Assembly (NCBI RefSeq): GCF_009914755.1
Contig: NC_060925.1
DNA from: the human T2T-CHM13v2.0 reference genome, Homo sapiens
Direction: 5' to 3' (one strand)
Length of the DNA stretch: 64,000 nt
In this document: positions 6,570 to 62,396 of the stretch, piece by piece
Layout: every line of letters starts with the position of its first letter
Numbering within the stretch: position 1 is the first letter of the stretch
Translations under genes and position numbers: made by a program
Notes under the pieces: model-generated
The model's input: the letters and a program-made list of their open reading frames with translations, nothing else
Told to the model about the DNA's origin: nothing
The model's database searches: none

Positions 6570-6970
6570 ATGAACCTATTTGTTTGGGTATTCATAAAGC
6601 AGGAGTGAGGACACAGTGAAAGTGAGACAAGGAAGAGAGAACAAAATAAAACAGGAAAGATAGAAAAACCAGTACCACACGTGTTAAGAGGCAAGCTCCT
6701 GTGTTAGATATCTGGGCTTAATTCTATGGGAAGCTATGCGGAATATGCCTCAGAATTACATCACTGAATCCAGGGAGATTCTTCTTAGTTACCCTCACCT
6801 ATTCTTCCCACTTCATGCCCAGTATCAAACTCCCGTGCTGCTAGAGAAAGTCCTCAGCTAAAAACAGCTGCAAATTCTGGAGATGAGACCCTGTAGAGTG
6901 TTAAGAATGGTTTTCTTCCAGAAGCTACAGGTAAGGAATAGGGGCTGGGCTATTAATACATCTGCTACAA
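6570..6970. mobile_element. Old ERVL-type LTR remnant (LTR33/LTR41-like)
   Basis: GAAAGTGAGACAAGGAAG...ATCTGGGCTTAATTC...GCCTCAGAATTA motif order resembles old ERVL LTRs; paralog at about 37470-37870. Confidence 0.35.
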
Positions 6971-10887: not shown

Positions 10888-11399
10888 AATGACTGAGAAA
10901 ACGTTTTTATTTTTTATTTAGAAAATTATTTTGTGCATGAGCATTACTGCCAGTTTTGCAAGAAACATAAATTTATAGAAACAATTATGTGCACAAGATG
11001 AATTTAATAACATCTTGATAAATCTTGTAGGTAAGGGTAAATATAAGGATGCATCCAATTACATTTACACACACATACAATTACATTTACACAAACATAC
11101 ATGCTCACACGCTCACTGATACAGGTATGCATATATATACATGAAATTACCAAATGATTTTAACTCATATTTATAAGAGCCTGTAGGATTGATATATATT
11201 GTTGAACCTGAAAAATATTTATTAAATACATGTTTAAAATACACAAAGATATAAATAGTAATTGCACTAGGCATTTGAAACTGTACTTAAATATAAGCTG
11301 TGATCATTACAAATTCTTACACTGAATAAATATTTTTATTTTTATAATAATATGTTTGATACATGTGTACATTTTTTTAAATGTATTATTTTTGTCATA

Positions 11400-11741
11400 G
11401 AGTCATGCCATGCATAATAATATTTCAGTCAGAGATGGAATACATATACAAAAGTGGTCCCATGAGATTATAATACATATTTTTACAAACTTTTCTATGT
11501 TTAAGTATGTTTACATACATAAACTCTTACCACTGTGTTCTTATTGCCTGCAGTATTCAGTAGGGTAATGTAGTACACAGGTTTGTAGCCTAGGAGAGAG
11601 AGGTTATGCCATATAACCTAAACGTGGTAGGCTGTACAAACTAGGTGTTTGTAATATTCTCTCTGACGTTTGCAAAATGATGAAATTGCCTATGGATGCA
11701 TCTGTTAGAACGTATCCCTGTCATTCAGTGATGCGTGACTG
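11400..11741. mobile_element. Tigger3a-like (Golem) non-autonomous DNA transposon
   Basis: Termini (C/G)AGTCATG...CGTGACTG, internal AGAACGTATCCC motif, TA flank; paralog at about 34367-34710. Confidence 0.75.
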
Positions 11742-12369
11742 TGCTAAAATGCTAAATCAAAGTTTCAATGACCTCCATAAAATTGTTGTACTGTGAAATA
11801 CAAATCTCTCACCTACGGCCTGAATATGTTTGCAAACTAAGCAGATCATGGGAAGGAGAATGTGCTGGCATCGCTGGGATGATTTTCTCACACTACATGA
11901 ATAATATGTCCAGAGTTTGCGAATATGAGCCACTTGCATAGAGTTAAAGGAAGCATCTCTTTGCTGGGAAATGTATCAAATGGGAGTATGAAGTGTTTTT
12001 AAAAGATACTTGTTTGTTTGTAGACGGTAGGCCTACAGTGGCTCATGGCAATGGTTGAGGTTGCTAAGATTTGGTGGAAGAAGGCAAAATGAAATGGCCA
12101 CTTATATGGTATATGGATCACTTGTTTCTGTTGAGTTACAGATTCAGCTGGCTATTTCTCCCAATGTTAGTTATTTGGAGAAAAGAAACATGATAGTAAT
12201 TTTGGGGTAACAAATACAATATTTGATGAAAGCAAATTTATTGAGGGTTTGACAAACTACAAGATAATTTAGGCTGCAAAGTCAACACGAGACTTCTGGC
12301 CCAAATTGTGCAGAGTTTGGGTCCAGCTGCAAAGTTCAAAGGCAGAGGCCATATAAGATGATTCGCACT

Positions 12370-12645
12370 TTTGTCACCAACTGCCAGTTCTGGGGTTTCC
12401 CCAGACCACCCTCAGTTTCAAGAATTTACTAAAAAGACTCACAGAACTCATTGAATGCCATTGTACTCATGGTTTATAATAGAGAAAGGGTAGAAATTAG
12501 GACCAATCAAAGGAAGAGACATATCACATAAGGTGGAATCTAGGAGGATTTTGAATGTTAAGTTTCCATTGTCTTCAGGACATATTACCTGTCATTGTTG
12601 TACAGCAATAAACATGGAGTACTAAAAACCTGGGGAGCTCACCTG
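12370..12645. mobile_element. MER21-like LTR fragment
   Basis: ACTCACAGAACTCA...TACTCATGGTTTAT...GGAAGAGACA motif order typical of MER21; paralog at about 33465-33740. Confidence 0.6.
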
Positions 12646-12649
12646 ATGC

Positions 12650-15500
<2,851 letters not shown>

Positions 15501-17446
15501 CACAGAAGACTAAGGGGTTTTGGACTGTTGCAGCTGGAAGGCAGTTTGAAATACTGAATAGGTCTCATCGAGAATGTGAGGTTTCAGTAAAGACTTGAGG
15601 AAGTTGAATGAGCTCATCAATGGATATATGGAGGGCTATCTTTCCAAGCTAAGAAATTAACTAGAGTCTTGGTCATAAGGCAGCAGCATGTTGGCATGTC
15701 CAGAGGACAGTGAGGTGGCCAGGACAACTGGTAAGTTCAAGGGTGAAGACAGAAAAGAATTTTGGCGGTTAACATGCGGCAGATCATGATGGGCTTGCAG
15801 ACCATTGTAAGAATTGTGTCTTTTAGTGTAAATGAAATGGGGAGACAAATCATTATCCCATTATCAATATTTTAATAAATTGGATCCATGAACCAAATCC
15901 AATGAGATTAAATCAATTAGTAATTATATGCAGATTTGTATTACAATTACCAGAATTCTTTGCACATTTGAGAACAGGAGAGTCATGATTGTTTATCAGC
16001 AATAATAAACTATTAATTTTAATTGTCATCAGCTAATTGAGATTGAAATACATCATGCTTTATAATGTGACTGTCAAAAGGAAAATATGATTGTAATCTT
16101 ATACTACATCTATTAATGTCTTTGATTCATAGGACTATAGATTAAGCCCCTACTTTTCAAAGCCAACTGATGAGGCAGCGACATCTTATGCAAGTTTGCT
16201 GCTTTCTGCCACAGTGGTCCTTGGTCAGCGGGCACAAATTGTTTTACAACACCACCAGGTCTAAAAAAAGTTTGGATCACAATGAACACAGAATCACCTT
16301 CATCCCTTCAGAAATACCTATCAATTAGTTCCAATACAGAATGAAAAATTGACAACGGAAGTATGTTGATTGTAAAAATGCCAGATAGCTTGCATCTACA
16401 TGAAAGAAAAATGCCATTTTTATTACAATAGATCATCGTTTCACATGAGTTTTGGTGTAGCACAATGTTGAACCAAGGGCAAAGAGAGATGAATTAATGA
16501 AGTCTTAAGATATCAAGAATTTGAAAGAAAAGGCAGGTCAACTTTGAAGGTTAGTGACATAGCATTCATCTTCTGTTGTCACCTTTTCCGTCATTTCCTG
16601 TATGCCTGATGGACAGCTTTCACTCAAGTTCAGAGAACAGCATGCAAAGATTAGCTACCAACTAATTTTTATGAAGTGAGCTTAATTTCTAGCCAGACTG
16701 AGCTTACATTTTAGCAGGAAGCATCTTTGGGAAATGTTTATGTTAGAGTTGGCCCTTCTTGACAAGGTGAGACATAAATGTCAACTTTATAGACATGAAT
16801 TAAGATGGGAAGATATTTGGGGGAAACATGTTCTCAAATGCTGAATAACAAAGGTACAAAAAGGGGAAATTTTTACTAGATTTCTTTCCCACTTGTTTTC
16901 TAAGTCTCATGCAATTCACCTTGATTCCTTTCAGTTTCTGTTTAACGTAGAAAGTGGCATTTTCATTATTTTAAGCTTCTAGCACAATGAAAGAATTTCT
17001 CTTTTTCATGAACTGCATCATAAATGAATGGAAGGAAGAGTGTCCAATATCATATTTATTGTTCAACAAAACACTGCTCCACTGCTTAAATTCAGTTTAA
17101 AAAAGAGAATTTATTGAACATCTAACACATACATAAAAGGCAGTAAAGACACATGAGAAGAAGGCAGGATATTGAAGTATACAGACTTTAATGCTGAGTT
17201 TTGTATCTTAGTAAGTTACTGCACCTTACAGAGACTCAATTTCCCCTGATTTAGGAAGGCGATGCTAATGGGTATTGCATAGGTGTAAGTATAAAAATAT
17301 TGTATTTAAGAGAATCCCACAAGCTTGGTATAAGGCAGAAAATAAATAGATGTGACATTAATGAGTAGTTTATTACATTTGTGTGCTACCTGCAGACTAG
17401 AGGAAGCAAGAAACACAGCCACTATGCTTGATTAGCATTATATTCT

Positions 17447-17776
17447 AATTTGGAATATAAATAGAAAAGAGAAAAATAGAAAGCTATGCATAAACACATG
17501 CATTAAAATGAATTTTATGTGGACTCTTTCAGGAAAATGTTCCTAAGGTATTTTATTTTTTTATTGTGGTAAAATACACATAAAATGTACTCTGTTAACC
17601 ACTTTAAGTGTACAGTTCTGTGGTACTAAATAGAGTCATAACATTGTGCAGCCATCCCTACCATCCATCTCCATAACTCGTTTCATCTTGTGAAACTGAA
17701 ACTCTATACCCATTAAACAGTACTTCCCCATGTCTTCCTCTCCCCAGCTTCTGGCAATCATCATTGTACTATCTCT
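17447..17776 (+). repeat. ~330-bp direct repeat B, copy 1 (partner 28573-28907)
   Basis: AATTTGGAATATAA...ATCTCT occurs in the same orientation at both ends of the spacer between the A arms; hand count about 25 mismatches plus one 5-bp indel. Confidence 0.95.
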
Positions 17777-18200
17777 GTGATTCTGTCCACTTTAAGTCTC
17801 TTATACAAATGGAATTATACTGTATTTGTCCTTCACTGACTAGCTTATTTCACTTGGCATAATATCCTCAAGTTTCATCCAAGTTGCAACATATGTCAGA
17901 ATATTTCCCTCATGTTTAAGGCTGAATAATTTTCCATTCTATGTATATATCATGTTTCGCTTATCCATTCAGCTGTGGTTGGACACTTCAATTGCTTCTA
18001 CGTTTCAGCTATTGCCAATAATGCTGCTGCAAACATGGATGTGCAAATATTTTTTCAAGACTCTGCTTTCAATTCTTTTGCTATCTTGAGATGTGGGGCT
18101 GCCGAATCATAAGGCAATACCATTTGGATGTTTGGAGGAACTACCATACTCTTTTCCACAGCAAACATAGGGTTTGGCATTCCCTCCAATATTGCAAAAG
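17550..18200 (-). mobile_element. L1MA/L1MB 3'-end fragment
   Basis: TTTTTTTATTGTGGTAAAATACACATAAAAT...CTTATTTCACTTGGCATAAT...AATAATGCTGCTGCAAACATGGATGTGCAAATAT is a classic antisense L1 3' end. Confidence 0.85.
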
Positions 18201-21200
18201 GAATCGCCACATCCTTGCCTGTGGATTTTATTCACAAGTCCTGTGGCTCTCTCTACATCCCGGCCACCATGTGTTATTTCCTGTTTATATATATGACATC
18301 AAAGGTGCAGGAAGTAATGAACTAAATGGGAAGGAAAAACATGTAGAAAAATAGAGGTAAATACTGACTACATAAAACCATCAGAATAAGAATTTTGGAT
18401 GATCTATCTATTATATATCTATTTATCTAACATCTATCTGTTCCTCCATCTGTAATTAAAATAAATTACAGGTAGAGAACAGAGAAAAAAGTAGGAATCC
18501 ATGAATTTAAATTTTAATTCTTCTTAGATTGTCTCACAGCATCATTATATGACAGAAAATGTATAGGTCATTATCTGTTAACTATAAATGTAATATTTTT
18601 TAAGTATTCAAATACATTGAATTGCAGAATGAATAACATATTACAATCCATTCAAGTTTATTTTATTCCAGGACCACAAAAATACAAATTTCATTTGCAA
18701 TTCAAGAAAAACAGAAATCGATACATATGATTGATGTATATACACATTTAATGTATTTTTAAATATACATTTTTAAAAAATAAAATTTTTCTAGGACAAC
18801 TACTTAAAATATCACTGAAAATAGTGTTATTAGATAATACCTTCCTAATAACTCTGGTATTACAAAAGAAAACGAAATTAAAATTTCAGATAAGCTTAGA
18901 AACTAAAAATTTTTAAAAAAATTATTCTGTTCTCCATATGTTCATATTTAATATTATTTCTTGTTTTCATTCTTCTTCAGTGTTGCTCTACTAAAATATA
19001 ACAATAGTTACTTTTGTTTTCTGTTCTTATTACTCAAAATTGTATACATTTTCTCATGCTCTTAATTTAGCTATGCTACTTTTCTTTATTCCTGGAATTT
19101 TCACATTTGTGTTCACTCTCTTTTGAGTTCCCATAGTATCAAATAAGCTTTTTGCCCTCTTTCTGATTTCAAGGTTCATCTTCTCATAATTATTTTGTCC
19201 ACTCAGTTTCTTTTCATTCTCACTTAAGTGCCTCTCATCTGGCTTCTTTTCGTTTGTAAGGTTTCCTTTCATCTTAAGCCAGTCTTTTATTTATATTTTG
19301 ATTCTGTTTTTTGGAGGACATGCTTCCTTGAATTTTAATGAAGAGGCCAAAAGGTTTGTTCAAGTTTTTACCTGATACAGTGGATTAAATTACCTAATGT
19401 ACACACCCTTAATTTAAGTCTAGGGGCGACTGTCTACTCTCGATTTTGTATAGTATTATTTTTCTTAACATCCAAGTCCATCTTCATCTATTTGTATATG
19501 ATCAATAAAAATATATTTGTCCAGAACACTGCTGTGGTGGAGTTACTTCTTTCTAAGTAGGAGAGGTAGCAGTTGAGACATGAGCTGGGTTCTGGGTCAG
19601 TTTAGAGGGCTGGGCGACATTCCTCCTTTTGGTCTGTATGACTGAATGAATGCGGTTCTTGCTGTCTCGCTCCTCTCCTTAACACATTGAGCCATTGCAG
19701 CAGATGAGAAGGAATAATCCTGATCTGCCATTCAGGTGGAACACTTGTTCTCTCCAACCACATCCATAGGTTGTACTCACACTCGGCCAGAATGTATCCT
19801 GTCAATGATATGGAGATGTATCTAGCTATCTAGATAGATATCTACTTTGGTTTATGCTCTCTGGTTGCCCGCAAATTATCTCCTTAAAGTGAATATCAAA
19901 AGAGAGCTTGGTGATGGCAGTGTTATAAAATCCTCAAAATGCAGCACCCACACCCAGAGGAATTTGTAGATTCTGGGATTCTAATTCAGATACCAAACTA
20001 TATAAAAGGGGCATTGGTCATTGAGGGTTGCTAGGCTCTTTGTGGAGCATATTTGCTCTTTTCATGACTTTGAAATTATTTTAAAAATCTAACCTTTTTC
20101 TCGGTGTGCTGCAAGATGATTTGATTTTAATGCACAAGCACTAATTCTCCCCTAAGATTTGTACAATATATTTGCTCTGACAAGCCATAGCCAGAAACTC
20201 ACTTCACAGCAATTTATAGCATTTCCACCACAATTTGAATTATTTTTAACTAGACTCTCTTTACCTTAATAAAAATATGAAGAAGCAATATACTTGTTCT
20301 AGTTAGGTTCAAAAGTTGGCAGTCTCTCTCCTGGAAAGAATAATAAAACTTTTCAGCGGCCTAATAGGCACCTATAGACACACAAACATGCAAGCACTAT
20401 TCATAATATTTAAAGCACATTCTGTTCTATGACTTCATTTGTCTAGCACAAAATAAAACGATCTCAGTATATGTCAAGTACCAATTGTTTCGTATGGCCA
20501 ATTATAGGTATTTTATTTTTTAAAGATTAGAGTGTTCTTGAAGCTCTTTCTATTTCTTTGTCAATGAACTAAACATTGGCAAACATGTAGGGTTTCCCAC
20601 ATAAGAATATTATTAACATCAAAATAGAAAGCTGGTGGTAGAAATAATGATTGGGAACACAGAGTCTCCACTCAGCGTTCTACTTCTGCCATACCATAAC
20701 TTTGTGATCTCACGAAATATCTCTCCATGTTCTCATCCCTATGTATAGTTCTGTCATTTTTCAATAAGAGCTTTTTGCTTAATTATGAAGTACTAGTTAC
20801 TATAACCATTATTTTGAGCTTCATGTAAATCAAGAACACATGGGCTCCACTTGCAAAACATTGAAAATGTAGTTAGCGATTGGGGGCACAAAGCAACATT
20901 TTAAAATGTGTAAAGACAATGAGTAAGCAACAAAGTGTCCAGTTTTTCAGGCGAAAGTTGCATAGGTCAGGAAAAGGCAGGATTAAGTAACAGAGAATTT
21001 GAATGATAACTGGCCAATTGGTGTCGTTTACAATTGCAACTTCATACAAATGAAGTTTGCTTTTTTAAAGAGAAAAGGAATTAGTTAGAATGGGTCAACC
21101 TATTGGGGAAGCAATGTAGTTAGAGACAATGCCCAAAACCATGTGAGCAAATGCTCTGTAGAGCGCACCCTTGCAATGCTGCCATTGTGAGGCCAAGTCT

Positions 21201-22156
21201 CTCCTTGTCTTGGTACTGAGCCCTCCATTCTGCCTCCATCATTGCCACTGTAGCTGCCACAAAATGATCCCTCAACCACCGCTGCCCAGGAACAAAGAAA
21301 GAATTCTGTCCTTCCGCGCTCTCAGATCAATTTCCAACATCAGGTGAGACTTTGATGGGCACTATTCAGTTCCCATATCCCTGAAATAGATGTAGTATAA
21401 ACATAGAAATTGCCTATGTGTTTCCCAATAAGACACATATGGAAGCCTGTTTCCCACAACAGGAAGGGGTTTCCACGATGGGTGCTCAAAGGAACAATAT
21501 TCCCTGTAAACCATACTTTGCCCATATGAAGAAGAGCAATGAGGATTATTTAGTAAATAGACATGCAAACTCATCCAGGGTTGGCTGATGAGAAGCTGGT
21601 TAGCAAGGGGGTCTGCCTTCAGTTAGGACAAGGTCTGTGCTTCCCACGGGTTCTCTCCACAGCAGGAGGGATGCAAACTTCCCTTTCCTCCCCTGCACCT
21701 ACCCTCAAATGGCCCAGAGGTCTTCAGGTGCTAGAATTTCTCAATGAACGCTGCACAAAATAACAGACAGCCTTGACTGTCACTGTCTGTTCTCATGAAG
21801 CTAGTCTCTGCTTACTACATAAAACAGAAGAGTAAGAACAAGGGTGTTAAACACTGCCCCAGCTCAAACAAGTTTCTCTCTGTAGGATGCCAAGAACCTG
21901 GGAACCAGTGCATCTGCTGCTTTCCCTTCTCGGATTCTAGCCCAGAAAAAAGAGGCAAGGAGCATTTCTTCAGAGGCCTTGAGCTTCACTACACAATGCC
22001 CCAGGCTCTACATGCACCCTCTTTATATATTTCTACCTCGAAAAAAAATTTTATATAATATTAATAATATATATTTTTATATAAGGAACACATACGTTTA
22101 TTTTATAGATAGATATAGATATACATAGATAAAGATCTCTAGTCTGCCTTTTTTAA

Positions 22157-22453
22157 GGCCGGGCTGATCGCGGTGCCCCAAAACTATAATCCCAGCACTT
22201 TGGGAGGCCAAGTTGGCCAGATCTCTTGAGTTCAGGAGGCGGAGATCAGCCAGGGCAACATGGTGAAACCCCATCTTTACAAAAATTAGCTACTATGGTG
22301 TCATGCACTTGCAGTCCCTGCTACTCAGGAGACTGAGGTTGGAGAATCGCTTGAGCACAGTATGTGAAGGCTTCCGTGAGCTCTGATCACATGACTGCAC
22401 TCCATCTTGGGTGACAAAGTGAGACCCTCTCTCAAAATAAAATAAAATAAAAA
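22157..22453 (+). mobile_element. Old Alu (AluJ-like)
   Basis: GGCCGGGC start, dimeric body, GTGACAAAGTGAGACCCT end and (AAAAT)n tail. Confidence 0.85.
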
Positions 22454-22520
22454 GGCTACCACCATACTCACAGATAAGTGTGTCAGGTATATTTGCAGCT
22501 ATCCTTCCTATACTCTATTT

Positions 22521-22523
<3 letters not shown>

Positions 22524-22562
<39 letters not shown>
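22524..22562 (+). repeat. Pure poly(A) tract, 39 nt
   Basis: Uninterrupted A run about 70 bp downstream of the Alu tail. Confidence 0.95.
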
Positions 22563-22566
<4 letters not shown>

Positions 22567-23515
22567 AAAGAACTCTTCTCATTCTAGATTTTTGTATTAA
22601 TTAGACATTTGAAGTTTATAGCAGAAGAGCTATAATCATGTTTGGTATGTGTACTCTATAGACCAGATAGTGCAAACATATATCAATGCTTTTTAAAAGT
22701 ATATAAGGTTATTAGAAATATTTTAAAGTACCTATAGGTATATATGTATCTAATTGAACTATCAAATACAAGTAAGATCATTTCCTTAGCGTGTGAAATG
22801 CACTCAATTTATTAAAATATTTTCTAATGTCTATTACAATAATATTTCTTAATTAGCTAACATAAGAGGAGTTTTAAGACATTTATTTATATGTACTTAC
22901 TAGATTCAAACTCGACTCCACTATTTTCAGAAATCATGCTCTGAGACAAGTCTTTTTTTTATCTAACTGTTTCTACCTATATTAAAAGACAGATATATAA
23001 ATTTTGCTAATCATGCTCTTCCAGACCTCTCCATCCTATTTTTCGGTTTGTTCTATCAGTCATTCAGAGACTTACTTATATTCAAATTTCTCTCTAGGTT
23101 TAACATTTGTGTATGTCTTCTGGTGTTTTTGTCTATTTTTGCTGTATATAATTTAAGACATTTATTGACATATACATGCAGAAAAATACCATGATTAAAT
23201 ATGGATAGCTTCATTAATGAAACACATGTATTTGCTGATAACCATGTATGAAAATAGAACATTACTAAAAATAGAGATACTTCTCCTGCCCCTTTCCAAA
23301 CACTAACCCTCATCCTCAATAGTAACAGATTTTTTTTATCATAGAGTAATTTGGTCTATTTTCAAATTTTTATTAAATAAATCAGAGTACCTACTCTAAG
23401 TCTATGTTTCTTTCACTGTTGTTATTTTGCTTATAGTATTTATCTGCTAATGGACATGGTAGATTAAAGAGGGCTGCATACACATTTTTTAATTAATAGA
23501 TTTTTTGAGCACTTT

Positions 23516-23640
23516 GTGGCTCATGCCTCTAATCCCACCACTTTGGGAGGCTGAGGTGCGTGGATCATGAGGTCAGGAGATCGAGACCATCCTGGCCAAC
23601 GTGGTAAAACCCCTTCTCTACTAAAATACAAAAAATTAGC
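23516..23640 (+). mobile_element. Alu left monomer (AluSc/Y-like), truncated at the duplication junction
   Basis: GTGGCTCATGCC...GAGATCGAGACCATCCTGGCC...TACAAAAAATTAGC, with the right monomer missing. Confidence 0.88.
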
Positions 23641-23777
23641 TGATAGATAACATCAAGATAACATGTGGGTTCTCAGCTGCACTGAATCAAGCCTACCTAC
23701 ATCTTTGTCTTCCTCTGCACTTTTCCTTCCACATCAAACTCCAGGAATGCCAAGCTGCGCTGGCCTTCTACCCCATT

Positions 23778-25145
23778 TCCACTATTTTGCCCCCGCCAAC
23801 GCGGCTTTTTGGGGCTCTTTGCCCTCGCCACCGCGGCTTTTTGCCGCCGCAGCTTTTTGCGTCTTTCTCCCCCCGCCGCCGCGGCTTTTTGCGGCTTTTT
23901 TCCCCCTGCTGCCGCAGCTTTTTGCCCCCGCCACCGCGAATTTTTCCGCAGCGGCTTTTTGTCACCGCCACCGCGACTTTTTATGGCTTTTGGCCCCCGG
24001 CGCCGCGGCTTTTTACTGCTTTTCGCCCCCGCCGCCGCAGGTTTTTCCCGCCGCGGCCTCTTGCCCCGCCGCCGCGGCCTCTTGCCCCGCCGCCGCGGCC
24101 TCTTGCCCCGCCGCCGCGGCCTCTTGCCCCGCCGCCGGCCTCTTGCCACGCCGCCGCGGCTTCTTACCCCGCCGCCCCGGCTTTTTGTGGCTTTTTGCCG
24201 CCGCGGCTTTTGGCCCCCGCCACCGCGGCTTTTTACGCCTTTTCGCCCCCGCCGCCGCGGCTTTTTTCCCCCGCCGCCGCAGGTTTTTCCTGCCGTGGCT
24301 TCTTGCCCCTACTGCCCGGGCTTTTTACGGCTTTTTGCCCCCGCCACCGCAGCTTTTTGCCCCCGCCGCCGCGGCTCCTTGCCCCCTACGCGTCTTCCTG
24401 CCCCCGCCGCCGCGGCTTTTTATCACCCCAGCCGCTTTTTGCCCCCGCCGCCACGGGTTTATGCCCCTGCCGCCGAGGGTTTTTGCGTCTTCATGTCCCC
24501 GCCGTCGTGGCTTTTTGCAGCCCCTACTTTTTGCCCCCTCTGCCGCAGCTTTTTGCGGCTTTTTACCCCCTGCGCTGCGGCTTTTTGCGGCGTTTGGCAC
24601 CGGACGCCGCCGCTTTTTGAGGCTTTTTGCCCCCGCCGCCGCGGCTGTTTGCCGCCGCCGCACCGTTTTGCCCCCGCCGCGCCTTTTTGGCCACGCCGCA
24701 TCTTTTTGCCGCCGAGGCTTCTTACCCCACCACCGCGGCTTTTTGCCCCTGCCGTCGCAGCTTTCTGCCCCCGACGCTGCGGCTTTTTATGGCTTTTTGT
24801 CCCCGTCACCGCAGCTTTTTCCCTCGCCGCCGCGACTTTTTGCCCCCGCCACCGCAGCTTTTTGTCGCCGCGGTTGTTTGCCTCGGCCGCCATGGCTTGT
24901 TGCCCCCGCCGCCGTGCCTTGTTGCCCCCGTCGCCCCGGCTTTTTCCCCCACCGCCCAGGCTTTTTGACCCCACCGTTGCGGCATTTTGCACCCGCCGCC
25001 GTGGCTTTTTGCCCCCCGCGGATTTTTCCCCGTGCCGCGGCTTTTTGCTCCTGCCCCCACAGGTTTTTACCGCTGCGGCTTTTTCTCCCCGCCGTTGCGG
25101 GTTTTTCCCCCCACGACCGCGGCTTTTTGCCCCCACCGCCGCGGG
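23778..25145 (+). repeat. GC-rich pericentromeric minisatellite (GCGGCTTTTTGCCCCCGCCGCC)n, 'CAAAAAG'-type, about 1.4 kb
   Basis: Tandem 12-13 bp and 21-23 bp units, each with a T5 core and CCGCGG; very CpG-dense. Confidence 0.93.
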
Positions 25146-25296
25146 TCTGAGGGCGGGATCGGCAAACTCGGCTGCCAGATCTAACAGCGTCCTGGCTAAG
25201 GCAGCGCCGAGGGTCACTCCTGGTCCAGCTCTCCTGGCTCGGGGGTTCCTTGCCTAGACACCCACGCCCCGTGCTCTGTTCCTGGGCCGCTGCAGC

Positions 25297-25527
25297 CTGT
25301 ATAGAGCGGCGCTGCGCTCGGCCCCGATGGGAGAGAAGAAGGAGAGCAGTGGCGGGGGTGACGCGGCTATCGCGGAGGGAGGCGCAAGGGTCGCAGCCAG
25401 TTGGGTGCTGCAGCAGTGCGGGCAGCTCCAGAAGCTCATCGGCATCTCCGTTGGCAGGCTGCGCGTGCTGTGCACCAAGTGCGCTGTGCCCAAGGACCTC
25501 ACCCAGCAGGAGATACGGACCGTGCAG
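25297..25527 (+). pseudogene. KSR1: Unprocessed KSR1 exon-1 duplicate (KSR1P-type), copy 1
   Basis: Translation (L)[76 protein letters not shown] aligns without gaps to the recalled KSR1 N-terminus ([24 protein letters not shown]...[11 protein letters not shown]). Ends at a phase-0 donor CAG|GTAAGG (25528). No downstream KSR1 exon recognised. Confidence 0.93.
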
Positions 25528-25804
25528 GTAAGGGGATCTGGGACCAGGGCTGGGCTCCAGCACTGGACTGGACATCTCCCTCGGGGCCCCAGTTCACTCC
25601 TGGCCGAGTTCCATCCTTGAGCCCGCGTCGCCACCTTGGAGGCTTCTCCTCCCTCCTGCACTCGCTGAAACGGCAGCCGGAGGACCCGGGATCAGCCCTC
25701 ACCTTGGGCAGGATTTGTGGGGCGGGTGCGTGTTGGGAACTTTGATGGAGGCTCAAGGGGCCCGTGGGTGGGGTGGGCTGTGCGTGGACATCCCCTTACG
25801 CCCC

Positions 25805-25965
25805 GAATTTCCATGTGGTGCAGCCTTCTCATCTTGTAGGTGAGGAAACCGAAGGCCTGAGGGAGAAATGACTTGCCAGGAGCCCCTGTTAAGGAAAACT
25901 AACAAAGTGTGGTTATCAAAGGAGAACTGAGTTCGGATTCAGACCTGGAGTCCCACACCCTTGGT
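25805..25965 (-). mobile_element. MIR fragment(s) in the KSR1 intron-1 copy
   Basis: CATCTTGTAGGTGAGGAAACCGAAGGCCTGAGGGAGAAATGACTTGCC MIR core; paralog at about 49160-49310. Confidence 0.6.
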
Positions 25966-26351
25966 TAAGACATTATACCACCTTGAGTCTGGCCTGTTGA
26001 CTGAGGGTGAGCCACTCCATCCTCGTCTGATTGTGGGGTCTTGACCTCAAGGGGTTTCCTGCAGGAAGAAGCAAATGGGTTTGCTTTCCTAGCTCTGTCC
26101 AGTACCTTAGGGACCTTGAGAAATGGAGAGATTCTTGGAGAGCCATCTGGTGTATGTCATGGGTGGGCCTTGTTTGAAGGTCAGTCTGCCCAGTGGGCTG
26201 GCTCAGCCCGAATGAACTGTCTTGAATCTTTGGAGATGTCTGTGTACTATTAAGGGTTTCTCATCCTTGCACAAAAAGATCCCCGGGAAATTAGGTGGGA
26301 AAACCTTAACTTTTGTGGAGCCTTGTATTTGTCTTAAAAGTTCATGCACAT

Positions 26352-26626
26352 AGCCAGGTGTGGTGGCTCACGCCTGTTATCCTGTCCTGGATCCCTTGAG
26401 TCAAGGAGTTTGAGACCAACCTGGACAATATACTGAGACCCCATCTCTACAAAAAATAAAATATTAGCCAGGAGTGGTTGTGCACATCTGTAGTCCTAGC
26501 TACTACTGTGGCTGAGGCGGGAGGAACACTTGAGCCTGCACTGAGCTGTGATCTCACCAGTGTACTCCAGCCTGGGCCACAGAGCAACACCTTGACTCAA
26601 AAAAAAAAAAAAAAAAAAAAAAAAAA
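26352..26626 (+). mobile_element. Old Alu (AluJ-like, internal deletion)
   Basis: Dimeric Alu with A-tail; the same element is in the paralog at 48503-48769 (-). Confidence 0.88.
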
Positions 26627-26744
26627 CCAAGAAAAATCCTTGAAGATTTTGCATTCTGTCCCACTATCCATTGGTTTTCATGTCAAGATAATGTCAGAAA
26701 TTCTTTACAATTGCTTCCAGAAGGAGTAACCTTTTGATCTAGTG

Positions 26745-26937
26745 CACAGCTGTCCAGTCTTTTGGCTTCTCAGGGCCACATTGGAAGAAGAATGCTCCTG
26801 GGCCACAGATAAAAGACACTACTGCTAATGATAGATGATGAGCTTAAAAAAAAAAAAGGTTTGTGCATAATTTTCATGATACCCACCACGACAGATAGGA
26901 GGAAAACTCCTTGTAGTCAAAGGGTTGGACACGGCTG
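26745..26937 (+). mobile_element. MER30 (hAT-Charlie) with perfect 8-bp TSD
   Basis: TGTCCAGTCTTTTGGCTTC...GGGCCACATTGGAAGAAGAA...GGTTGGACA; TSD ATCTAGTG at 26737-26744 and 26938-26945. Confidence 0.88.
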
Positions 26938-27663
26938 ATCTAGTGTCTTGTCGTCCGTTTTGGCTTTCTCCCTGACTCCAGAATGCAGGTAGAGATGTAG
27001 AGACATGCTCTCAGGACAGCTGTTGAGATAAAAAAAATTCTTGTCATTTATTCCCAAGGACATCTGTTTGCCATTTGCATTGAAAAAGTCTCCATTCAAA
27101 CTGCTGTCACATATAAAATCTATTTATATGTCTGTATTTTTCTGTTGTCTTGGCCTTTGTGAGCAGTAGTGTGTTTTTACCAAGGAAACTGTCCTTCCAA
27201 ATAATGAAGCGGAAGTCAGCCTACCTGCTTGCCATTTTTCTTCCCCTTCCATTTTTCAGTTGAAAGGATTGACTTCCTGCCTAGAATAGTTTCTGCTGTG
27301 CTTCTTATCCTTCTTGTGGAGATTTCAGATTATCTGAATTGCTTTTCTATCTTAAGAAAAAACGCAACAATTCTCCCACCTGAGAGGAATGTAAACTGTA
27401 GTAAGTTAGCAGAACCAATCCGTAAAGTTTTTACATTGTTTGTTGCAAAATGCAGCGCTGGTGTCTCCATCACTAACCTTTTCTATCCCTCATTGCTCTT
27501 TCTTTGACTGCAATAGGATACCTCTAGGCAAATCTGTATTCCCGAGACAGAGTGTCCTTTTGGTGAGCTATAAGTACACTCAATGTTAGGCTGAAATACT
27601 AGTTTTTATCTATGGTGAAATGGAATCATATCAGTGACTTTCTTAAAAAGGAAATTTAACTCT

Positions 27664-27790
27664 TGCTATGGTTTGAATGCTTGTCCCTTCCAAACTCATG
27701 TTAAAATGTGATCCCCAATGTTGCAGGTGGGGCTTACTGGGAGGTGTTTGGTCATGGGGTTGGACTTTCATGAATGGATAATACTCTCCC
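27664..27790 (+). mobile_element. MST-type MaLR LTR 5' fragment
   Basis: TGCTATGGTTTGAATG...TCCAAACTCATGTT...GGGAGGTGTTTGGTCATGGGG. Confidence 0.7.
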
Positions 27791-27899
27791 TTAGCAATCT
27801 AAAGCTATCCTCCCTCCTCGGTGCCCTCAGGAATGAGTGTACCATTCTGTATTCACCTATAATTGGCCCACCCATCCTTTTTGAGATATTGATTACATG

Positions 27900-28572
27900 T
27901 TTGTTACACTGATGCATATTGTCTGACGTATCAGTGAGTTTCTGGTTTTCTTATTTTAGTTTACCATTTGTCCTTTAGTTTGTAATGCTTCTAATTTGTT
28001 CTATAAATTTTCTGATGTTAGGGTAAAATCCATTACTTATTCTATCTCATGGAATTTTTATTTCAAATATTTATTTTTCATCTATATATGTCACATTTTT
28101 CATTTTATAACTTCTATTTTTCTCCTATGTTCAATTTTCATTTAAGTACCTTGACATATATATGTATTTATCTATATGCATTTATAAAATATATTTACTT
28201 TAAGTACCTTGAAATTTCCTTCTTTTCTGTCATTTATGAATGACTTATTTTTATCCTGTTAATATATATCTTAATTATATATATCTTATGGCTTCTTTGC
28301 ATTTCAGAGTTTTTTTTGGGTATTTTGATGTTATGCTTTTGAATATCTAGATTTGATTGGCTACCTTTGAACAATGTTGTGGCAGGCAGTTCAGTAACTT
28401 CAGGATGAGTGTTTGTCTGTTGTTGTTTTAAATCTTCTCTTTAAACTTTGTTGAGTTAGTCTAGAGCCATCTGTAATTTGGAGCTAAATGAGCACTGTCA
28501 CTAGGGCATGAACCTCCAGTGGTCTTTACTGAATATCCTGGAGGTACAGAGGGGATTCCCTTCTCTGATTAG
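27900..28572 (-). mobile_element. Ancient L1ME-type 5' region remnant
   Basis: AAACTTTGTTGAGTTAGTCTAGAG...GGTCTTTACTGAAT motif order resembles the antisense L1ME 5' end. Confidence 0.45.
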
Positions 28573-28907
28573 AATTTGGAATATAATGGGAAAAGAGAAA
28601 AATAGAAAGCTATGCATAAACACGTGCATTAAAATGAATTTTATGTGGGCTTTTTCATGAAAATGTTCCTAATGTATTTTATTTTTTTATTGTGGTAAAA
28701 TACACATAACATAAAATGTACTTTGTTAACCATTTGAAGTGTACAGTTCAGTGGTACTAAATATAGTCATAACATTGTGCAGCCGTCCCTACCATCCATC
28801 TCCATAATTCGTTTCATCTTGTAGAACTGAAACTCTATACCCATCAAACAATACTTCCCCATTTCTTCCTCCCCCCAGCTTCTGGCAACCATCATCATAC
28901 CATCTCT
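28573..28907 (+). repeat. ~330-bp direct repeat B, copy 2 (L1 portion truncated at the arm A junction)
   Basis: Same-orientation match to 17447-17776; abuts inverted arm A at ATCTCT|ATAATGCTAATC. Confidence 0.95.
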
Positions 28908-30849
28908 ATAATGCTAATCAAGCATAGTGGCTGTGTTTCTTGCTTCCTCTAGTCCGCAGGTAGCACACAAATGTAATAGACTACTTATTCATTTCACATC
29001 TATTTATTTTCTGCCTTATACCAAGCTTGTGGGATTCTCTTAAATACAACATTTTTATACTTACACCTATGCAATACCCATTAGCATCGCCTTCCTAAAT
29101 CAGGGGAAATTGAGCCTCTGTAAGGTGGAGCAACTTCCTAAGATATAAAACTCAGCATTGAAGTCTGTATACTTCAATATCCTGCCCTCTTCTCATGTGT
29201 CTTTACTGCCTTTTATGTATGTGTTAGGTGTTCAACAAATTCTCTTTTTTAAACTGAATTTAAGCCGTGGAGCAGTGTTTTGTTGAACAATAAATATGAT
29301 ATAGGAGACTCTTCCTCCCTTTCATGTATGATCCTGTTCATGAAAAAGAGAAATTCTTTCATTGTGCTAGAAGCTTAAAATAATGAAAATGCCACTTTCT
29401 ACATTAAACAGAAACTGAAGGGAATCAAGGTGAATTGCATGAGACTTAGAAAACAAGTGGGAAAGAAATCTAGTATAATTTGCCCTTTGTGTACCTTTAT
29501 TATTTAGCGTTTGAGTAAATGATTCCCCAAAATATCTTCCCATCTTAATTCATGTCTATAAAGTAGACGTTTATGTCTCACCTTGTCAAGAAGGGCAAAC
29601 TCTAACATAAACATTCCCCCAAAAATGCTTCCTGCTAAAACGTAAGCTCATTCTGGCTAGAAATGCAGCTCACTTCCTAAAGATTAATTGGTAGCTAATT
29701 TTGCATGCTGTTCTCTGAACTTGAGTGAAAGCTGTCCATCAGGCATACAGGGAATGACGGGAAAGGTGACAACAGAAGATGAATGCTATGTCACTTACCT
29801 ACAAAGATGACCTGCCTTTTCTTTCAAATTCTTGATATCTTAAGACTTCATTAATTCATCTCTCTTTTCCCTTGGTTCAACATTTTGCTATACCAAAACT
29901 CATGTGAAACAATGACCTAATGTAATAAAAATGGCATTTTTCTTTCATGTAGATGCAAGCTAACTGACAATTTTACAATCCACATATTTCCTTTGTCAAT
30001 TTTTCATTCTGTATTGGAAGTAATTGATAGGTATTTCTGAAGGGATGAAGGTGTTTCTGTGTTCATTGTGATCCAAACTATTTTTAGGCCTAGGGGCGTT
30101 TGTAAAACTATTTGTGCCCACTGACCAAGGATCACTGTGGCAGAAAGCAGCAAACTTGCATAAGATGTCACTGCTTCATAGGTTGGCTTCGAAAACTAGG
30201 GGCTTAGTCTATACTCTTATGAATAAAAGACATTAATAGATGTAGTATAAGATTACAATCATATTTTCCTTTTGACAGTCACATTATAAAGCATGATGTA
30301 TTGCAATTAATCTCAATTAGCTGATCACAATTAAAATTAATAATGTTTATTATTGCTGATAAAAATCATGTCTCTCCTGTTCTCAAACGTGCAAGTAATT
30401 CTTGTAATTTTAATACAAATTTGCATATTATTATTAATTGATTTAATCTCATTGGATTTGGTTCATGGATCCAATTTATTAAAATATTGGTAATGGGATA
30501 ATGATTTGTCTCCCCATTTCATGTACACTAAAAACAACATTTCTTACAATGGTCTGCAAGCCCATCATGATCTGCCGCATGTTAACCGCCAAAATTGTTT
30601 TATATCTTCACCCTTGATCTTACCAGTGGTCCTGGCCACCTCACTGTCCTCTGGACATGCCAACTTGCTGCTGACTTATGATCAAGACCCTAGTTAATTT
30701 CTTGGCTTGGAAAGATAGCCCTCCATATATCCATTGATCAGCTCATTCAACTTCCTCAAGTCTTTACTGAAACTTCACATTCTCGATGAGGCCTATTCAG
30801 TATTTCAAACAGCCTCCCAGCTGCAACATTCCAAAACCCCTTACTCTTC

Positions 30850-31649
30850 TGTGTATTTTTGAAAGGATTTATTGAGATATAATTTACATAGTGTAGAGTG
30901 CACACATTAATGTCTACAAGTCAGTGGCTTTTAGTATATGCCCAGATAAGTGGAGCCATCATCACAATGAATTTTAGAGCATTTTCATCACTTCAAAAAG
31001 AAACCCCACCTTCCCTAGCTGTTAACCTCCTATGTACCCATCTCCTACTCAATCCTAAGCAACCACAAATCGGTTTTCTGTCTCTATAGATTTTCCTATT
31101 CTGTTTTCATCTAAATAGAATCATACAATAGGTGGCCTTTTGTGCCTGGCTTCTTTCAGTTGGCATAATGCTATCAAGGTTCATGTACCTATTGGTACTT
31201 TATTTCTTTTTATAACTGTATAACATTCAATTTCATGGATATAACATTTTGTTTATCCAATAATATTTTTATTGACATTTGAGTTGTGTTCAGCCTTTGG
31301 CTATTTTAAATACTGCTGCTAAAAATACTTGTGTACAATTTGTGTTTGAACACTTCTTTCCAATAATCTGGGTGTATACCTAGGAATAAATTTCTGGGTC
31401 ATATGACAATTCTATGTTTCATATATTTAGAAGCCATCAAATTATTTTCCAAAGTAGCCAGTTCTAGCCATAGAGTATCTAACTGTGGTTTTGATTTGTA
31501 GTTGCCTGATGAGTGATGCTATTGAGTATATTTTTATGGGATTATTGACCGTTCGTGTATCTTCTTGGGAAACACATCTATTCCTATCATTTATCAGTTT
31601 TGAGTTGGGATATTTGTGACGGAGTTAAAACAATTTTTCTATATTCAAG

Positions 31650-31696
<47 letters not shown>

Positions 31697-33460
31697 CATA
31701 TAGATACGTGTTTTTCAAATATCTTCTCACAATTTTTGAGCTGCCTTTTGACTTGCTTGGTTGTCCTTTGAAACACCAATGTCTTTAATTTTTAAGAAAT
31801 TTTAAATATCTAATTTTTATTGTGTTGCTCATGTTTTTGGGGTTACAGCTATTTCTTTGCTAGATCCAAAATCCTGAAGACTTTCGCATATGCTTTATTC
31901 TACCTCTTGAATGTGTGTCTTTAATTCATTTGAGTTAATATTTTTGTATGCTTTGGGGTAAGGGTTCGAATTTACTATTTTGCAAGTGGTGATCCACGTG
32001 TACGTTGTTGACCCAGTGTGTTCAAAGACTGTCTCTTCCTCCTTGAATTGCACATGGCACCACTGTAAGAATCCATTGACTGTAGACACATAGTTTTATA
32101 TATGGACTCTCAATTCTCTTCCATCAATCTATATATTTTTCCTTCATCACTATTGTGTTGTCTTCATTACTGATACTTTGCAGTAAGGTTTGGAGCATGG
32201 GGGTGTGAATTATCCTAATATGTTTTCTTTTTTCAAGATTATTTTGGCTATTTTGAGTCCCTTACAATTCCATGTGTATTTTACAATCAGTTTGTCAGTT
32301 TCTAGACAGAAGTCTGTTGGGATATTTGCAGGGATTTCATCAAATCTGTACTTCAAATTGTAAAGTACTACAATATTAAATCGTCCAATTCATGGGTGTA
32401 AGGTGTTTGCTAATTATTTAAATATTCTTTAAACAATAATTTTTAATTTTCAGAGTAAAATCTTGTATCACATTTTCCAAATTAATTATTGTCTCTTTTT
32501 TTTGATGCTATTTTAAATTGAAGTGTTTTCCTAAATTCATTTTGGGGTTTTCATTGCAGATGTGTGCAATTGATTTTTGTACATTTACCTTGTTTGCTGT
32601 AATATTGCTGAAATAATTTACGAGTTCTATCGTTCGGTGGATTCCTTAAAATTTTCTATATACAAGAATGTTATTTTGAAATAAAGTTTTATTTCTTCCT
32701 GTTCAATATGGGTGACTCTTATTTTTTTAGTTGCCGATTTGCCCTGCATAAAATCTTTAGTACAGTGTTGACTAGAAGAGATCAAAGTATATATCCTATT
32801 CTTATCTCTGACCATAGCGGGAAAGCATCCTTTACCATTAAGTTGCATGCTTGCTGTTGGCTTTTCACAGGTGTCATGTATCTGGTGTAGAAAGCTCTCT
32901 ATTCCTGGTTCATTGAGTTTTTGTTTTTATTTTTAATCATTAAAGCATTTGGATTTTGTTAAATGTCTTTTCCGAATCTATCGAGATGATCATGCAATTC
33001 TCTTTTCTTATTCTATGGATAAGATGTATTACCGTAATGGATTTTGGGCTGTTAAACCAACCTGGGATTACTTGTATAAATTTCACTTTGTAATAGTGTA
33101 TAATTCTTTTATATGTTGCTAGATCTGATTTATTAGTATTTTTTAAGGAATTTTGCATTTATACTTATAGTAGTTTTATTTTTCTATGCTATTTTGACTA
33201 ATTTTTGTATCAAGGTAACACTGGCCCCACAGAATAAATTGGGAAGTGAATATTTCTCTTTTTTAAAAAATCTAGTAAAGAATTAATATCAATTTTTCAA
33301 CACTAACAAATATTATTATAAATTATTAATTTATCTAATTTTTATTTTCTTCCTTCTGCTTGCTTTAGGTTTAGTTTGCTATTCGTTCCAGTGCCTTAAT
33401 GTGGAACGTCATCTTATCTCATCCTTTCATTTGTCTTTTCATTTTGTAAATAGTGTCTTT
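30850..33460 (-). mobile_element. Degenerate L1M (paralog of 12650-15500)
   Basis: ORF 32940-33158 (KRIIHYYKVKFIQVIPGWFN) is a decayed L1 ORF2 segment. Confidence 0.85.
31654..31692. repeat. (AT)n microsatellite, about 19 units
   Basis: Pure AT run; the left-arm site at about 14710 has only TATATATG. Confidence 0.95.
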
Positions 33461-36400
33461 TTAGCATCAGATGAGCTCCCCAGGTTGGTAGTACTCCATG
33501 TTTATTGCTGTACAACAATGACAGGTAATATGTCCTGAAGACAATGGAAACTTAACATTCAAAATCTCCTAGATTCCACCTTATATGACATGTCTCTTCT
33601 ATTGCTCCTAATTTCTAACCTTTCTCTATTATAAACCATGAGTACAATGGCATTCAATGAGTTCTGTGAGTCTTTCTAGTAAATTCTTGAAACTGAGGGT
33701 GTTCAGGGGAAGTCCCTGAACTGGCAGTTGGTGTCAGAAGTGAGAATCTTCTTACACGGCCTCTTCCTTTGAACTGTGCAGCTGGACGCAAACTCTGCAC
33801 AATTTGGGCCAGAAGTCTCGTGTTGACTTTGCAGCCTAAAGTATCTTGTAGTTTGTCTGACCCTCAATAAATTTGGTTTCATCAAATATTGTATTTGTTA
33901 CCCCAAAATTACCATCACGTTTTTTTTCTCCCAATAACTAACATTGGGAGAAATAGCCAGGTGAGTCTCTAACTCAACAGAAACAGGTGATCCATATACC
34001 ATATAAGTGGCAATTTCATTTTGCCTTCTTCCACCAAATCTTAGCAACCTCAACCATTGCCATGAGCCACTGTAGGCCTACCAGCTACAAACAAACAAGT
34101 ATCTTGTAAAAATACTTCATACTCCCATTTGATACATTTCCCAGCAAAGAGATGCTTACTTTAACTCTATGCAAGTGGCTCATATGCACGAAGTCTGTAG
34201 ATATTATTCATGTAGTGTGAGAAAATCATCGCAGCGATGCCAGCACATTCTTCTTCCCATGATCTTCTTAGTTTGCAAACATATTCAGGCCATGGGTGAG
34301 AGATTTGTATTTCACAGTACAACAATTTTATGGAGGGCATTGAAACTTACATTGAGCATTTTAGTACAGTCACACATTACTGAATGCTAGGGATACGTTC
34401 TAACTGATGTATCCATAGGCAATTTCATCATTTTGCAAACATCACAGATAATATTACAAACACCTAGATTGTACAGCCTACCACGTTTAGGTTATATGGT
34501 ATAGCCTCTTTCTCCCAGGCTACAAATCTGTGTACTACATTACTCTACTGAATACTGCAGGCAATAAGAACACAGTGGTAAGAGGTTATGTATCTAAACA
34601 TACTTAAACGTAGAAAAGTATGTAAAAATATCTATTATAATCTCATGGGACCACGTTTGTAACTGTAATCCATCTTTGACTAAAATGTTATTATGCATGA
34701 CATGACTCTATGACAAAAATAAAATGACAGATTGTAAAAAATGTACACAGGTATCAAACATATTAATATTGTAAAAATACAAATATTTATTCAGTGTAAG
34801 AATTTGTAATGATCACAAAATGTTCACAGCTTATATTTTAGTACAGTTTCAAATGCCTAGTGCAATTGCTATTTATTTCTGTGTGTATTTTAAACATGTA
34901 TATAATAAATATTTTTCAGGTTCAACAATATATATCAATCCAACTGGCTCTTATACATATTAGTTAACATCAATTAGTAAATTCATATATATATATACAC
35001 ACGTGAATCAGTCTGTATGCATGTGTGTGTAAATGTAACTGTATGTGTGTGTAAATGTAACTGGATGCGTCCTAATATTTACCATTACCTACAAGATTTC
35101 CAAGATTCATTTATTATCTTTAAATGGTGTGCATTTAAAGACTTACCAAATAAAATCGCAATCGTGGAATATATCAAGATGTTATTAAATTCATCTTGTG
35201 CACATAATTGTTTCTTTAAATTTATGTTTCTTGCAAAACTTGCGGTAATGCTCATGCAAAAAATAATTTTCTAAATAAAAAATAAACACATTTTCTCAGT
35301 CATTAATTCTTAATAATTATTTCTCCCCAATAATTAATGTGAATTAATTCTTAATTCTTAATTATAGAATAATGTTGCCCTTCAGAGTTCTGAATCTTTT
35401 GCACGTTGTGTACATTTCACTGACTAGAACATCTTCCGGAATATTGGCATTAATTAATGTCACTCAGCAATTAATGATTTCAAAGAAATTAAATACCATT
35501 CATATTCTGAATCACAAGGGTACTTTGGCATCTAATTTAATCGAGCTCTTTGTATCATCGTCTACACTTTAATTACTTAACAAACATTTCTCTGTGTGAG
35601 AAAGATTGAGAAGGTTATTGTGCTTTTTTATGATGCAACTTTTGCTTAATCTAGAGATAGGCAATGCTCCCTATATGGGACAAAGAGAAAAATCAAAGAG
35701 CAATAGAGATGTGACAGGCATGGAAAAAGACAATACATTTATAAAACAAATAGGGCCACAGATGATGACAATGGGGATCAAATCTTGAGATACTGACTCA
35801 GTTTATAACCGCACTGTACAATAGAGCAAATCATTTGTTAATTATTTTACAAATGGAATCTAATTTAATTAAGATGAATACAGTGTTTTAAACAAGACAG
35901 GTCATCTTAAAATAAAATAGTGGAAAAAGTGATAAAACCAATGTAAAAATCATAAACATTTTATAAAGAATTTTTTCATGTAATTTATTATTTTCCTTTA
36001 AAATCACCCAAATCAAATAATTTTATCTAAATTAACAAATAATCATCAGAAGTTAACTAATTTTTACTTTATAATACTAGGTTTAAAAATTCTTCACTAT
36101 ATTTTTAATCATACATGCTTATACATAAAATAGACATAGGGTATAGGTTTACATGTTCACAGTATTATATTGTAATTGTTCCTATGGATGTGGTTTTTCA
36201 ATAGAATTAATAAGTACTTTTAAAAAGTTTCAATTTCAATGATATATATGTTTATTTTTCTTTGACAAAGCATACATATATTGATAGGTAATAATAAGAA
36301 AATCTTCTAAAGACATTACAGGAACATGAATAAGTAATTAAATCCTCCATAATTTGTAACTTTTTATGTAAGCAGAACACATTTAACTGAAAATTGCTTT

Positions 36401-61456: not shown

Positions 61457-61639
61457 TTCCACTTAATATGTAGGGGAAGGCAACAAAAACTGCCACACTT
61501 AGAATACTCCTGATGCTGGGAGTATGAAAGGAGGAAAAACAAAACAAAACTGCTCTTGAAGGTGACGGAGGAATATCACTGAGCTCACAAACACAGCCAG
61601 GAAAAGAACAGAAGTGTGAGAAGGCTACATTCCTGAGAC

Positions 61640-62390: not shown

Positions 62391-62396
62391 TTTGCG

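What the first reader, a model, noticed from the sequence alone, without database searches (positions are those of the whole stretch)
17429..28910. A> B...B <A architecture: 11.5-kb spacer with ~330-bp direct terminal repeats sitting exactly between the tips of inverted arms
Seen: left arm A ends at 17442 and B starts at 17447; the second B (28573-28907) ends at the base where inverted A begins. The L1 fragment in B continues past 17776 in copy 1 but is cut at 28907 in copy 2. B copies differ by about 25/330 bp, similar to the A arms (7/110 in one sample), which fits a single old event. Junction signatures: TGATTAG lies just before B at both sites (17429-17435; 28566-28572), and TTCTAAT (17443-17449) is the reverse complement of ATTAGAA (28568-28574). 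Inferred: either a circularly permuted, terminally redundant segment (ancestral X-B-C integrated as B-C...X-B through a circular intermediate) or a fold-back/template-switch palindrome that was later modified.
Basis: partly seen in the sequence, partly recalled or inferred. Interest (0 to 1): 0.75.

Follow-up and report, generated by a model that had tools for sequence, protein, structure and literature searches.

The report
Two duplicon variants fused head-to-head
The mirror-image layout near the chromosome 1 centromere is real, but it is two distantly related copies of a common human duplicated segment, one in the original order and one carrying an old rearrangement likely made by replication template switching at a small hairpin, that were later joined head-to-head, rather than the product of a DNA circle.

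Summary
The A> B...B <A layout is confirmed to the base (B copies 25/330 mismatches; arms 6.7%). The window belongs to a pericentromeric duplicon family with about 70 junction-bearing copies in CHM13 (PIR4-like, by recall). Its most source-like copy (chr7:53.3 Mb) reads A-B-C...Y'-X'; old dispersed repeats run across B|C and X|Y, so X|B and B|A' are derived. The right half is an X-B*-A' variant found 31 times on 8 chromosomes; the left half is an ancestral-order A-B-C copy from another clade (sisterhood rejected, AU p about 1e-6 for A, 1e-5 for B). The 11.5-kb 'spacer' is not a unit: it holds a junction at 27256|27257 (1-bp microhomology) seen in 1 of 40 scored hits, the window itself. All derived junctions (B|A', X|B, and a third, stuttered Z|B junction in 3 copies elsewhere) fall on one 8-bp inverted repeat at 17438-17460, which points to one old multi-switch replication event (FoSTeS/MMBIR type; inferred). 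The circle model is refuted; a template switch is supported, but in an ancestor elsewhere, not in situ. A clean new case of known processes.

The parts
3851..17442 (+). Arm A of an ancestral-order (A-B-C) duplicon copy; holds an SVA-type insertion (9144-about 10886) and an Alu (13369-13638) absent from the right arm
   Evidence: clade with chr1:128.796/128.992 Mb
17438..17460 (.). 8-bp perfect inverted repeat with 7-nt spacer at the A|B border; the breakpoints 17442, 17447 and 17449 all lie in it
   Evidence: such repeats cover 1.6% of 3851-43000; whole 71-mer z only -1.4
17447..17776 (+). B1, ancestral-type B; second part is an old dispersed repeat (L1M-like by recall) that continues into C
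17777..23642 (+). C, ancestral continuation of B; colinear with the chr7:53.3 Mb copy up to an Alu cut at 23642
23643..27256 (+). Segment inserted into that Alu in pericentromeric copies, with the GC-rich CAAAAAGCCGCGG-type repeat (23785-25144); cut at 27256. Inverted paralog at 47864-51219
27256..27257 (.). Window-specific fusion point between the A-B-C copy and the X-B*-A' copy, 1-bp microhomology (C)
27257..28567 (+). X, truncated on its left; ancestrally continues into Y within one old repeat
28568..28572 (+). ATTAG, 5 nt not from X; copied from within 20 bp of the A|B border (17431-17435 or reverse complement of 17445-17449)
28573..28907 (+). B2 = B*, derived-lineage B, inverted relative to A'; ends in a 3-bp microhomology (TAT, 28907-28909) with A'
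28907..40575 (-). Arm A' of the X-B*-A' variant; nearest relative chr1:128.860 Mb
60638..64000 (+). W segment of the next copy; 60638 is the site (Z) joined to the B start in three copies on chr10 and chr16

Best explanation
The layout is a mosaic of two old paralogs of one pericentromeric duplicon, an ancestral-order A-B-C copy on the left and a rearranged X-B*-A' copy on the right, joined at 27256|27257, likely by a later end-joining deletion, with the rearranged variant likely made once, elsewhere, by replication template switching at the hairpin at the A|B border. Shown: the two lineages, the ancestral order A-B-C-E-Y'-X'-W', the junction sequences. Inferred steps: (1) a fork stalled in the 17438-17460 inverted repeat after 17442, switched strands through a 3-bp match at 17776-17778, copied B backwards to the loop, picked up 5 nt from the border and jumped to X' (11.8 kb on in the chr7 form, 18-19 kb in most pericentromeric copies), copied about 14.5 kb of X'W' and returned to the B start with two stuttered restarts (the Z|B junction): product A B*' X'W1' B* C*...; (2) recombination between the repeated X'W1' stretches gave the common A B*' X' W' form, which spread to 31 sites; (3) on chr1 an A-B-C copy and an X-B*-A' copy facing each other lost the DNA between them (other facing pairs are 67-91 kb apart; here 11.5 kb). 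B looks like a direct terminal repeat only because it is inverted relative to A inside the right-hand variant. No function is implied.
For: Census: 68 A tips = 37 A-B + 31 A-B', no third type; 70 X ends = 37 X-Y + 33 X-B, of which 31 have A' 335 bp on; controls 0. chr7:53.3 Mb copy is A-B-C...Y'-X', has the Alu intact that is cut at 23642, and is the most distant row in A and C. 3 of 3 dispersed copies cross B|C and none B|A'; 2 of 4 dispersed copies extend 46-50 bp into X across X|Y, none matches X-B (picked by a 15-mer on the junction, so only the extension counts). X-B-A' rows form one side of a 100/98 branch in A; all 20 non-A B rows one side of a 100/99 branch. Window halves as sisters rejected: p-AU 1.0e-6 (A), 1.2e-5 (B); nearest relatives 2-3% away against 5.7% between halves. 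Junction 27256|27257 spanned by 1 of 40 scored hits; 29 of 29 other X loci lack it. Z|B junction in 3 of 40 hits, with the first 15 nt of B and a 9-nt W piece repeated twice, 13.5-17 kb from an X on the same strand layout.
Against: No ape or monkey genome could be searched, so the root rests on repeat continuity and the chr7 copy. The single-event origin of all three junctions is inferred from their shared position; the site was also hit by an independent 5-bp deletion in two A-B-C copies, so it may simply be fragile and the junctions serial. Only 3 copies keep Z|B, and most X-B-A' copies checked have intact W, which needs step 2. X does not resolve X-B rows as one clade. The hairpin is weak (z -1.4). 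Only 40 of 149 candidates were scored for the fusion junction. Deletion versus ectopic joining at 27256 cannot be told apart.
Confidence: 0.8

Rival explanations
1. Same mosaic, but the derived variant arose in serial steps at a fragile hairpin: first X|B (X-B*-C*, by inversion or ectopic joining through a 2-bp TG match at 17429 plus an 11-bp deletion), later B|A' and Z|B as separate events.
For: Two X-B-C copies exist with intact W (chr2:92.256, chr9:44.887). B* alleles are shared by X-B-C, Z-B-C and X-B-A' up to 8 bp from the B end; four of five derived B-C copies share a C clade (96/94). The border was hit independently in two A-B-C copies.
Against: Needs A' to be cut at 17442 and Z to be joined at 17447, both within 5 bp of the first junction, in separate events; no reciprocal A|Y junction among 68 A tips; X-B-C is also expected from a crossover inside B* between X-B*-A' and Z-B*-C.
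Confidence: 0.3
2. In-situ fold-back: one event in this window made both arms and both B copies, later modified.
For: A and B pairs are equally diverged (p=0.51); junction microhomologies fit a template switch.
Against: Halves are not sisters; the right-hand junctions are shared with 30 other sites; each half has relatives at 2-3%.
Confidence: 0.04
3. Circular intermediate: ancestral X-B-C excised as a circle and integrated as B-C...X-B between inverted arms.
For: X-B-C occurs twice in the genome. Two copies (chr2:132.45, chr18:15.33) have X-Y on the A side of B, which could be a permuted or tandem order.
Against: X-Y and A-B-C are the source-like state; B1 lacks the B* alleles that X-B-C carries; the spacer's C end and X start are joined at a private junction that is not in any X-B-C copy examined.
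Confidence: 0.02
4. The 27256|27257 join is an assembly artefact or a change private to the CHM13 cell line.
For: Seen once; reads could not be examined.
Against: Both flanks are unique sequences 2-5% from their nearest paralogs, not copies of other assembled loci.
Confidence: 0.06

Closest known systems
PIR4, pericentromeric interspersed repeat (Horvath et al. 2003, doi 10.1093/molbev/msg158; only the citation was seen; features recalled)
   Same: Multi-ten-kb non-satellite duplicon, more than 40 copies, on chr1, 2, 7, 9, 10, 13-18, 21, 22 next to satellites and GC-rich repeats.
   Different: Identity with PIR4 could not be tested. The A-B-C versus X-B*-A' junction classes, the Z|B junction and this fusion were not found in the library searches, which do not hold the PIR4 paper.
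FoSTeS/MMBIR complex rearrangements with iterative template switches (Gu et al. 2016, PMC5120786; passages read)
   Same: Several junctions with 0-3 bp microhomology, an inverted 330-bp piece, short templated insertions from nearby DNA.
   Different: Here a fixed evolutionary allele that was later duplicated some 30 times, not a patient variant; the original product is reconstructed from scattered copies.
Four-point template switch, type 1-4-3-2 (Loytynoja and Goldman 2017, PMC5453318; passages read)
   Same: Switch at 17442 to the other strand at about 17778, back-copy to 17447, possible return at 17443-17449: the order that creates an inverted repeat.
   Different: The model covers single short switch-and-return events; here the fragment is 330 bp and is followed by a kilobase-scale jump.
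Polymerase theta-type templated insertions (search listing only: PMC5068794, PMC12426944)
   Same: The Z|B junction repeats the first 15 nt of B and a 9-nt flank piece twice.
   Different: Enzyme cannot be assigned from sequence.
Segmental duplication through circular intermediates (recalled, no call)
   Same: Terminal redundancy looks alike at first sight.
   Different: No permuted source order in this window; redundancy comes from two lineages.

Membership tests
PIR4 | More than 40 copies in the human genome (recalled) | tested here: met
   68 A tips and 70 X ends, controls 0; lower bounds
PIR4 | Confined to pericentromeric duplication zones of a subset of chromosomes (recalled) | tested here: met
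   Hits on 13 chromosomes, nearly all near centromeres or acrocentric arms; outliers such as chr7:53.3, chr2:132.5, chr16:52.2 Mb
PIR4 | Unit of about 49 kb (recalled) | tested here: inconclusive
   A 11.7 kb + 18-19 kb to X + X 1.3 kb + W at least 13 kb = at least 44 kb; outer ends not mapped
PIR4 | Sequence identity with the published PIR4 reference | not testable with these tools
   Paper not held; no accession at hand
FoSTeS/MMBIR product (X-B*-A' variant) | Two or more junctions with short microhomology and an inverted segment | tested here: met
   TAT at B|A'; AAT or TG at X|B; B inverted relative to A
FoSTeS/MMBIR product (X-B*-A' variant) | Templated insertions from nearby DNA | tested here: met
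   ATTAG at X|B; stuttered B start at Z|B
FoSTeS/MMBIR product (X-B*-A' variant) | All junctions made in one event on one molecule | tested here: inconclusive
   Z|B, X|B and B|A' lie in cis at chr16:39.29-39.30 and 52.23-52.25 Mb (middle of W not read), but serial origin is not excluded
Circular-intermediate duplication | Insert is a circular permutation of a contiguous source segment (X-B-C) | tested here: not met
   Source-like order is A-B-C...Y'-X'
Circular-intermediate duplication | Both ends derive from one donor lineage | tested here: not met
   AU tests

The most novel reading that the evidence does not exclude
One hairpin-triggered, multi-switch replication accident in a hominoid ancestor made all three junctions at once, left an excess of substitutions in the back-copied 330 bp (6 of 335 stem changes against 10 of 2240 in A and C, p=0.012, post hoc), and its product then seeded at least 36 pericentromeric copies, so that these junctions are a datable lineage tag for tracing how centromere-flanking duplications spread between chromosomes.
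Probability: 0.4. Interest if true: 0.45.

Novelty: new member of a known kind. Interest (0 to 1): 0.28.

Why it matters
It shows how a striking 'terminal repeat between inverted arms' pattern can arise in pericentromeric DNA with no circle and no mobile element, which is a caution for reading such layouts from one window. The three junctions split a 70-copy duplicon family into ancestral and derived classes at base resolution and could serve as markers to order duplication events in T2T ape genomes. No gene or function is involved.

Tried and rejected
Circle model and in-situ fold-back: rejected. Equal divergence as proof of one event: rejected, it holds for any two old paralogs. A surviving A-B'-B-C palindrome or a reciprocal A|Y junction: none among 68 A tips (limited to 2 mismatches, and the chr18:15.33 copy was missed by that limit). 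X tree could not resolve X-B rows. A search with 28908-44158 to map the mirror partner gave no scored result, so the large chr1 mirror is drawn from junction coordinates only. Literature: searches found no paper on PIR4 or this locus; three Horvath look-ups were not held; subscription papers and their supplements may describe these junctions. Hairpin stability of the border is not significant as a whole. The B* substitution excess is weak against A alone (p=0.09). Rows left out of trees: those covering under 85% of the segment; chr10:42.996 C was left out of the C stem count because it falls outside that clade.
Full report
Observation. The layout is as described. Self-comparison gives inverted arms 3851-17442 and 28907-40575 at about 92% and a direct pair 17447-17776 / 28573-28907. 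B differs at 25 of 330 columns, the arms at 768 of 11408; the rates do not differ (p=0.51). The left arm alone carries an SVA-type and an Alu insertion with duplicated flanks (family names recalled).

Family. B1 has at least 40 paralogs in the window's genome, almost all pericentromeric; 30 of the 30 loci fetched (of 40 hits, window included) read A-B-C. Of 30 X loci fetched (of 40 hits), 14 are X-B-A', 15 are X followed by another sequence Y, and 1 is X-B-C. Pattern censuses give 68 A tips (37 A-B, 31 A-B') and 70 X ends (37 X-Y, 33 X-B); 31 X-B sites carry A' and 2 carry C; reversed-pattern controls gave 0. These are lower bounds. Copy number and distribution fit PIR4 as I recall it; the paper was not held and I saw only its citation.

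Ancestral order. The copy at chr7:53.3 Mb reads A-B-C, matches the window to 23642, lacks the GC-rich repeat, and reaches Y' and X' 11.8 kb from the A tip. It keeps intact the Alu that is cut at 23642 in the window and is the most distant row in A and C, though not in B. Three of three dispersed repeat copies, picked, align across B|C and stop at B|A'. Two of four dispersed copies, picked by a 15-mer on X|Y, extend 46-50 bp into X, and none matches X-B. So B|A' and X|B are derived, and A-B is ancestral by elimination within this genome. No outgroup species could be searched.

Two lineages. X-B-A' rows are one side of a 100/98 branch in A, next to the chr2:132.45 and chr18:15.33 copies; the window's left half groups with chr1:128.796 and 128.992 Mb. 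All 20 B copies not preceded by A share diagnostic alleles (B*) and a 100/99 branch. Holding the two halves together is rejected (p-AU 1.0e-6 in A, 1.2e-5 in B). Each half has relatives at 2-3% against 5.7% between halves over 1.1 kb of A. With recalled rates of 1.5-2.2e-9 per site per year the halves split roughly 15-22 million years ago; this is rough.

The spacer is not a unit. 17777-27256 is continuous in six other copies, which go on into different sequence; X is preceded by other sequence in all 29 other X loci. One of 40 scored hits spans 27256|27257, the window itself (149 candidates). The join has one shared base. Other facing A tips are 67-91 kb apart, so a deletion of tens of kb between two facing copies is the likely cause; an ectopic join is not excluded.

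Origin of the right-hand variant. Read from A, the variant is A to 17442, then B backwards from about 17778 (3-bp match) to 17447, then 5 nt from the border, then X'. The border lies in an 8-bp inverted repeat, 17438-17460; such repeats cover 1.6% of the region, a post hoc figure. Three copies (chr10:42.996, chr16:39.288, chr16:52.232) hold a third junction, W site 60638 joined to the B start, with the first 15 nt of B and a 9-nt W piece repeated twice. On chr16 it lies in cis with X-B*-A', with W continuing from both ends (the middle was not read). One event with serial switches around one stalled site explains three junctions at one spot; this matches the signatures given for FoSTeS/MMBIR in Gu et al. 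2016 (PMC5120786, passages) and, for the first switch, the 1-4-3-2 type of Loytynoja and Goldman 2017 (PMC5453318, passages). Against it: most X-B-A' and both X-B-C copies checked have intact W, which needs later recombination; and two A-B-C copies have their own 5-bp deletion at the border, so serial hits at a fragile site remain possible. I put the mosaic at about 0.9 and the single-event origin at about 0.6.

Verdict. Real structure, wrong model. Neither a circle product nor a local fold-back; a head-to-head fusion of two variants of a high-copy pericentromeric duplicon. The processes are known; this reconstruction was not found in the searches run, which miss most subscription papers. Interest 0.28.

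Noticed in passing
chr1:128.79-129.0 Mb (window plus flanks; L003, L004, L036): Mirror-image pairs around about 128.894 Mb: the A-B-C copies at 128.796 and 128.992 Mb are nearly identical in A, B and C, while the inner X-B-A' pair (128.860 Mb and the window's right half) is about 97-98% alike. Suggests a 200-kb palindrome with recently homogenised outer arms.
   Followed up: partly
L061, L062, L063 (chr10:42.996; chr16:39.288; chr16:52.232 Mb): Z|B junction with the B start copied three times, interleaved with a flank piece: a fossil of iterative templated insertion.
   Followed up: yes
chr16:39.20-39.49 Mb: Six X-B-A' units in the same orientation, 40-100 kb apart: a tandem array of the derived variant.
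   Followed up: no
L018 (chr2:132.45 Mb), L026 (chr18:15.33 Mb): X-Y lies 45-56 kb away on the A side of B instead of the C side: a permuted or tandem order in the copies closest to the derived clade.
   Followed up: no
window 23643-27256 and 47864-52741: GC-rich CAAAAAGCCGCGG-type repeat segment inserted into an Alu in pericentromeric copies, absent at chr7:53.3 Mb; the predicted pseudogene LOC124905675 lies on the second repeat array.
   Followed up: partly
window 9144-10886 and 13369-13638: SVA-type and Alu insertions in the left arm only, with empty sites in the right arm; could date the left lineage.
   Followed up: partly
L065 (chr17:27.707 Mb): A B-C copy whose B starts about 85 bp in and is joined directly to the GC-rich repeat: another junction type.
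   Followed up: no
window 44159-46802: A 2.6-kb ATTTCATCATTTC-type satellite block, distinct from the CATTC satellite at 1-3300.
   Followed up: no
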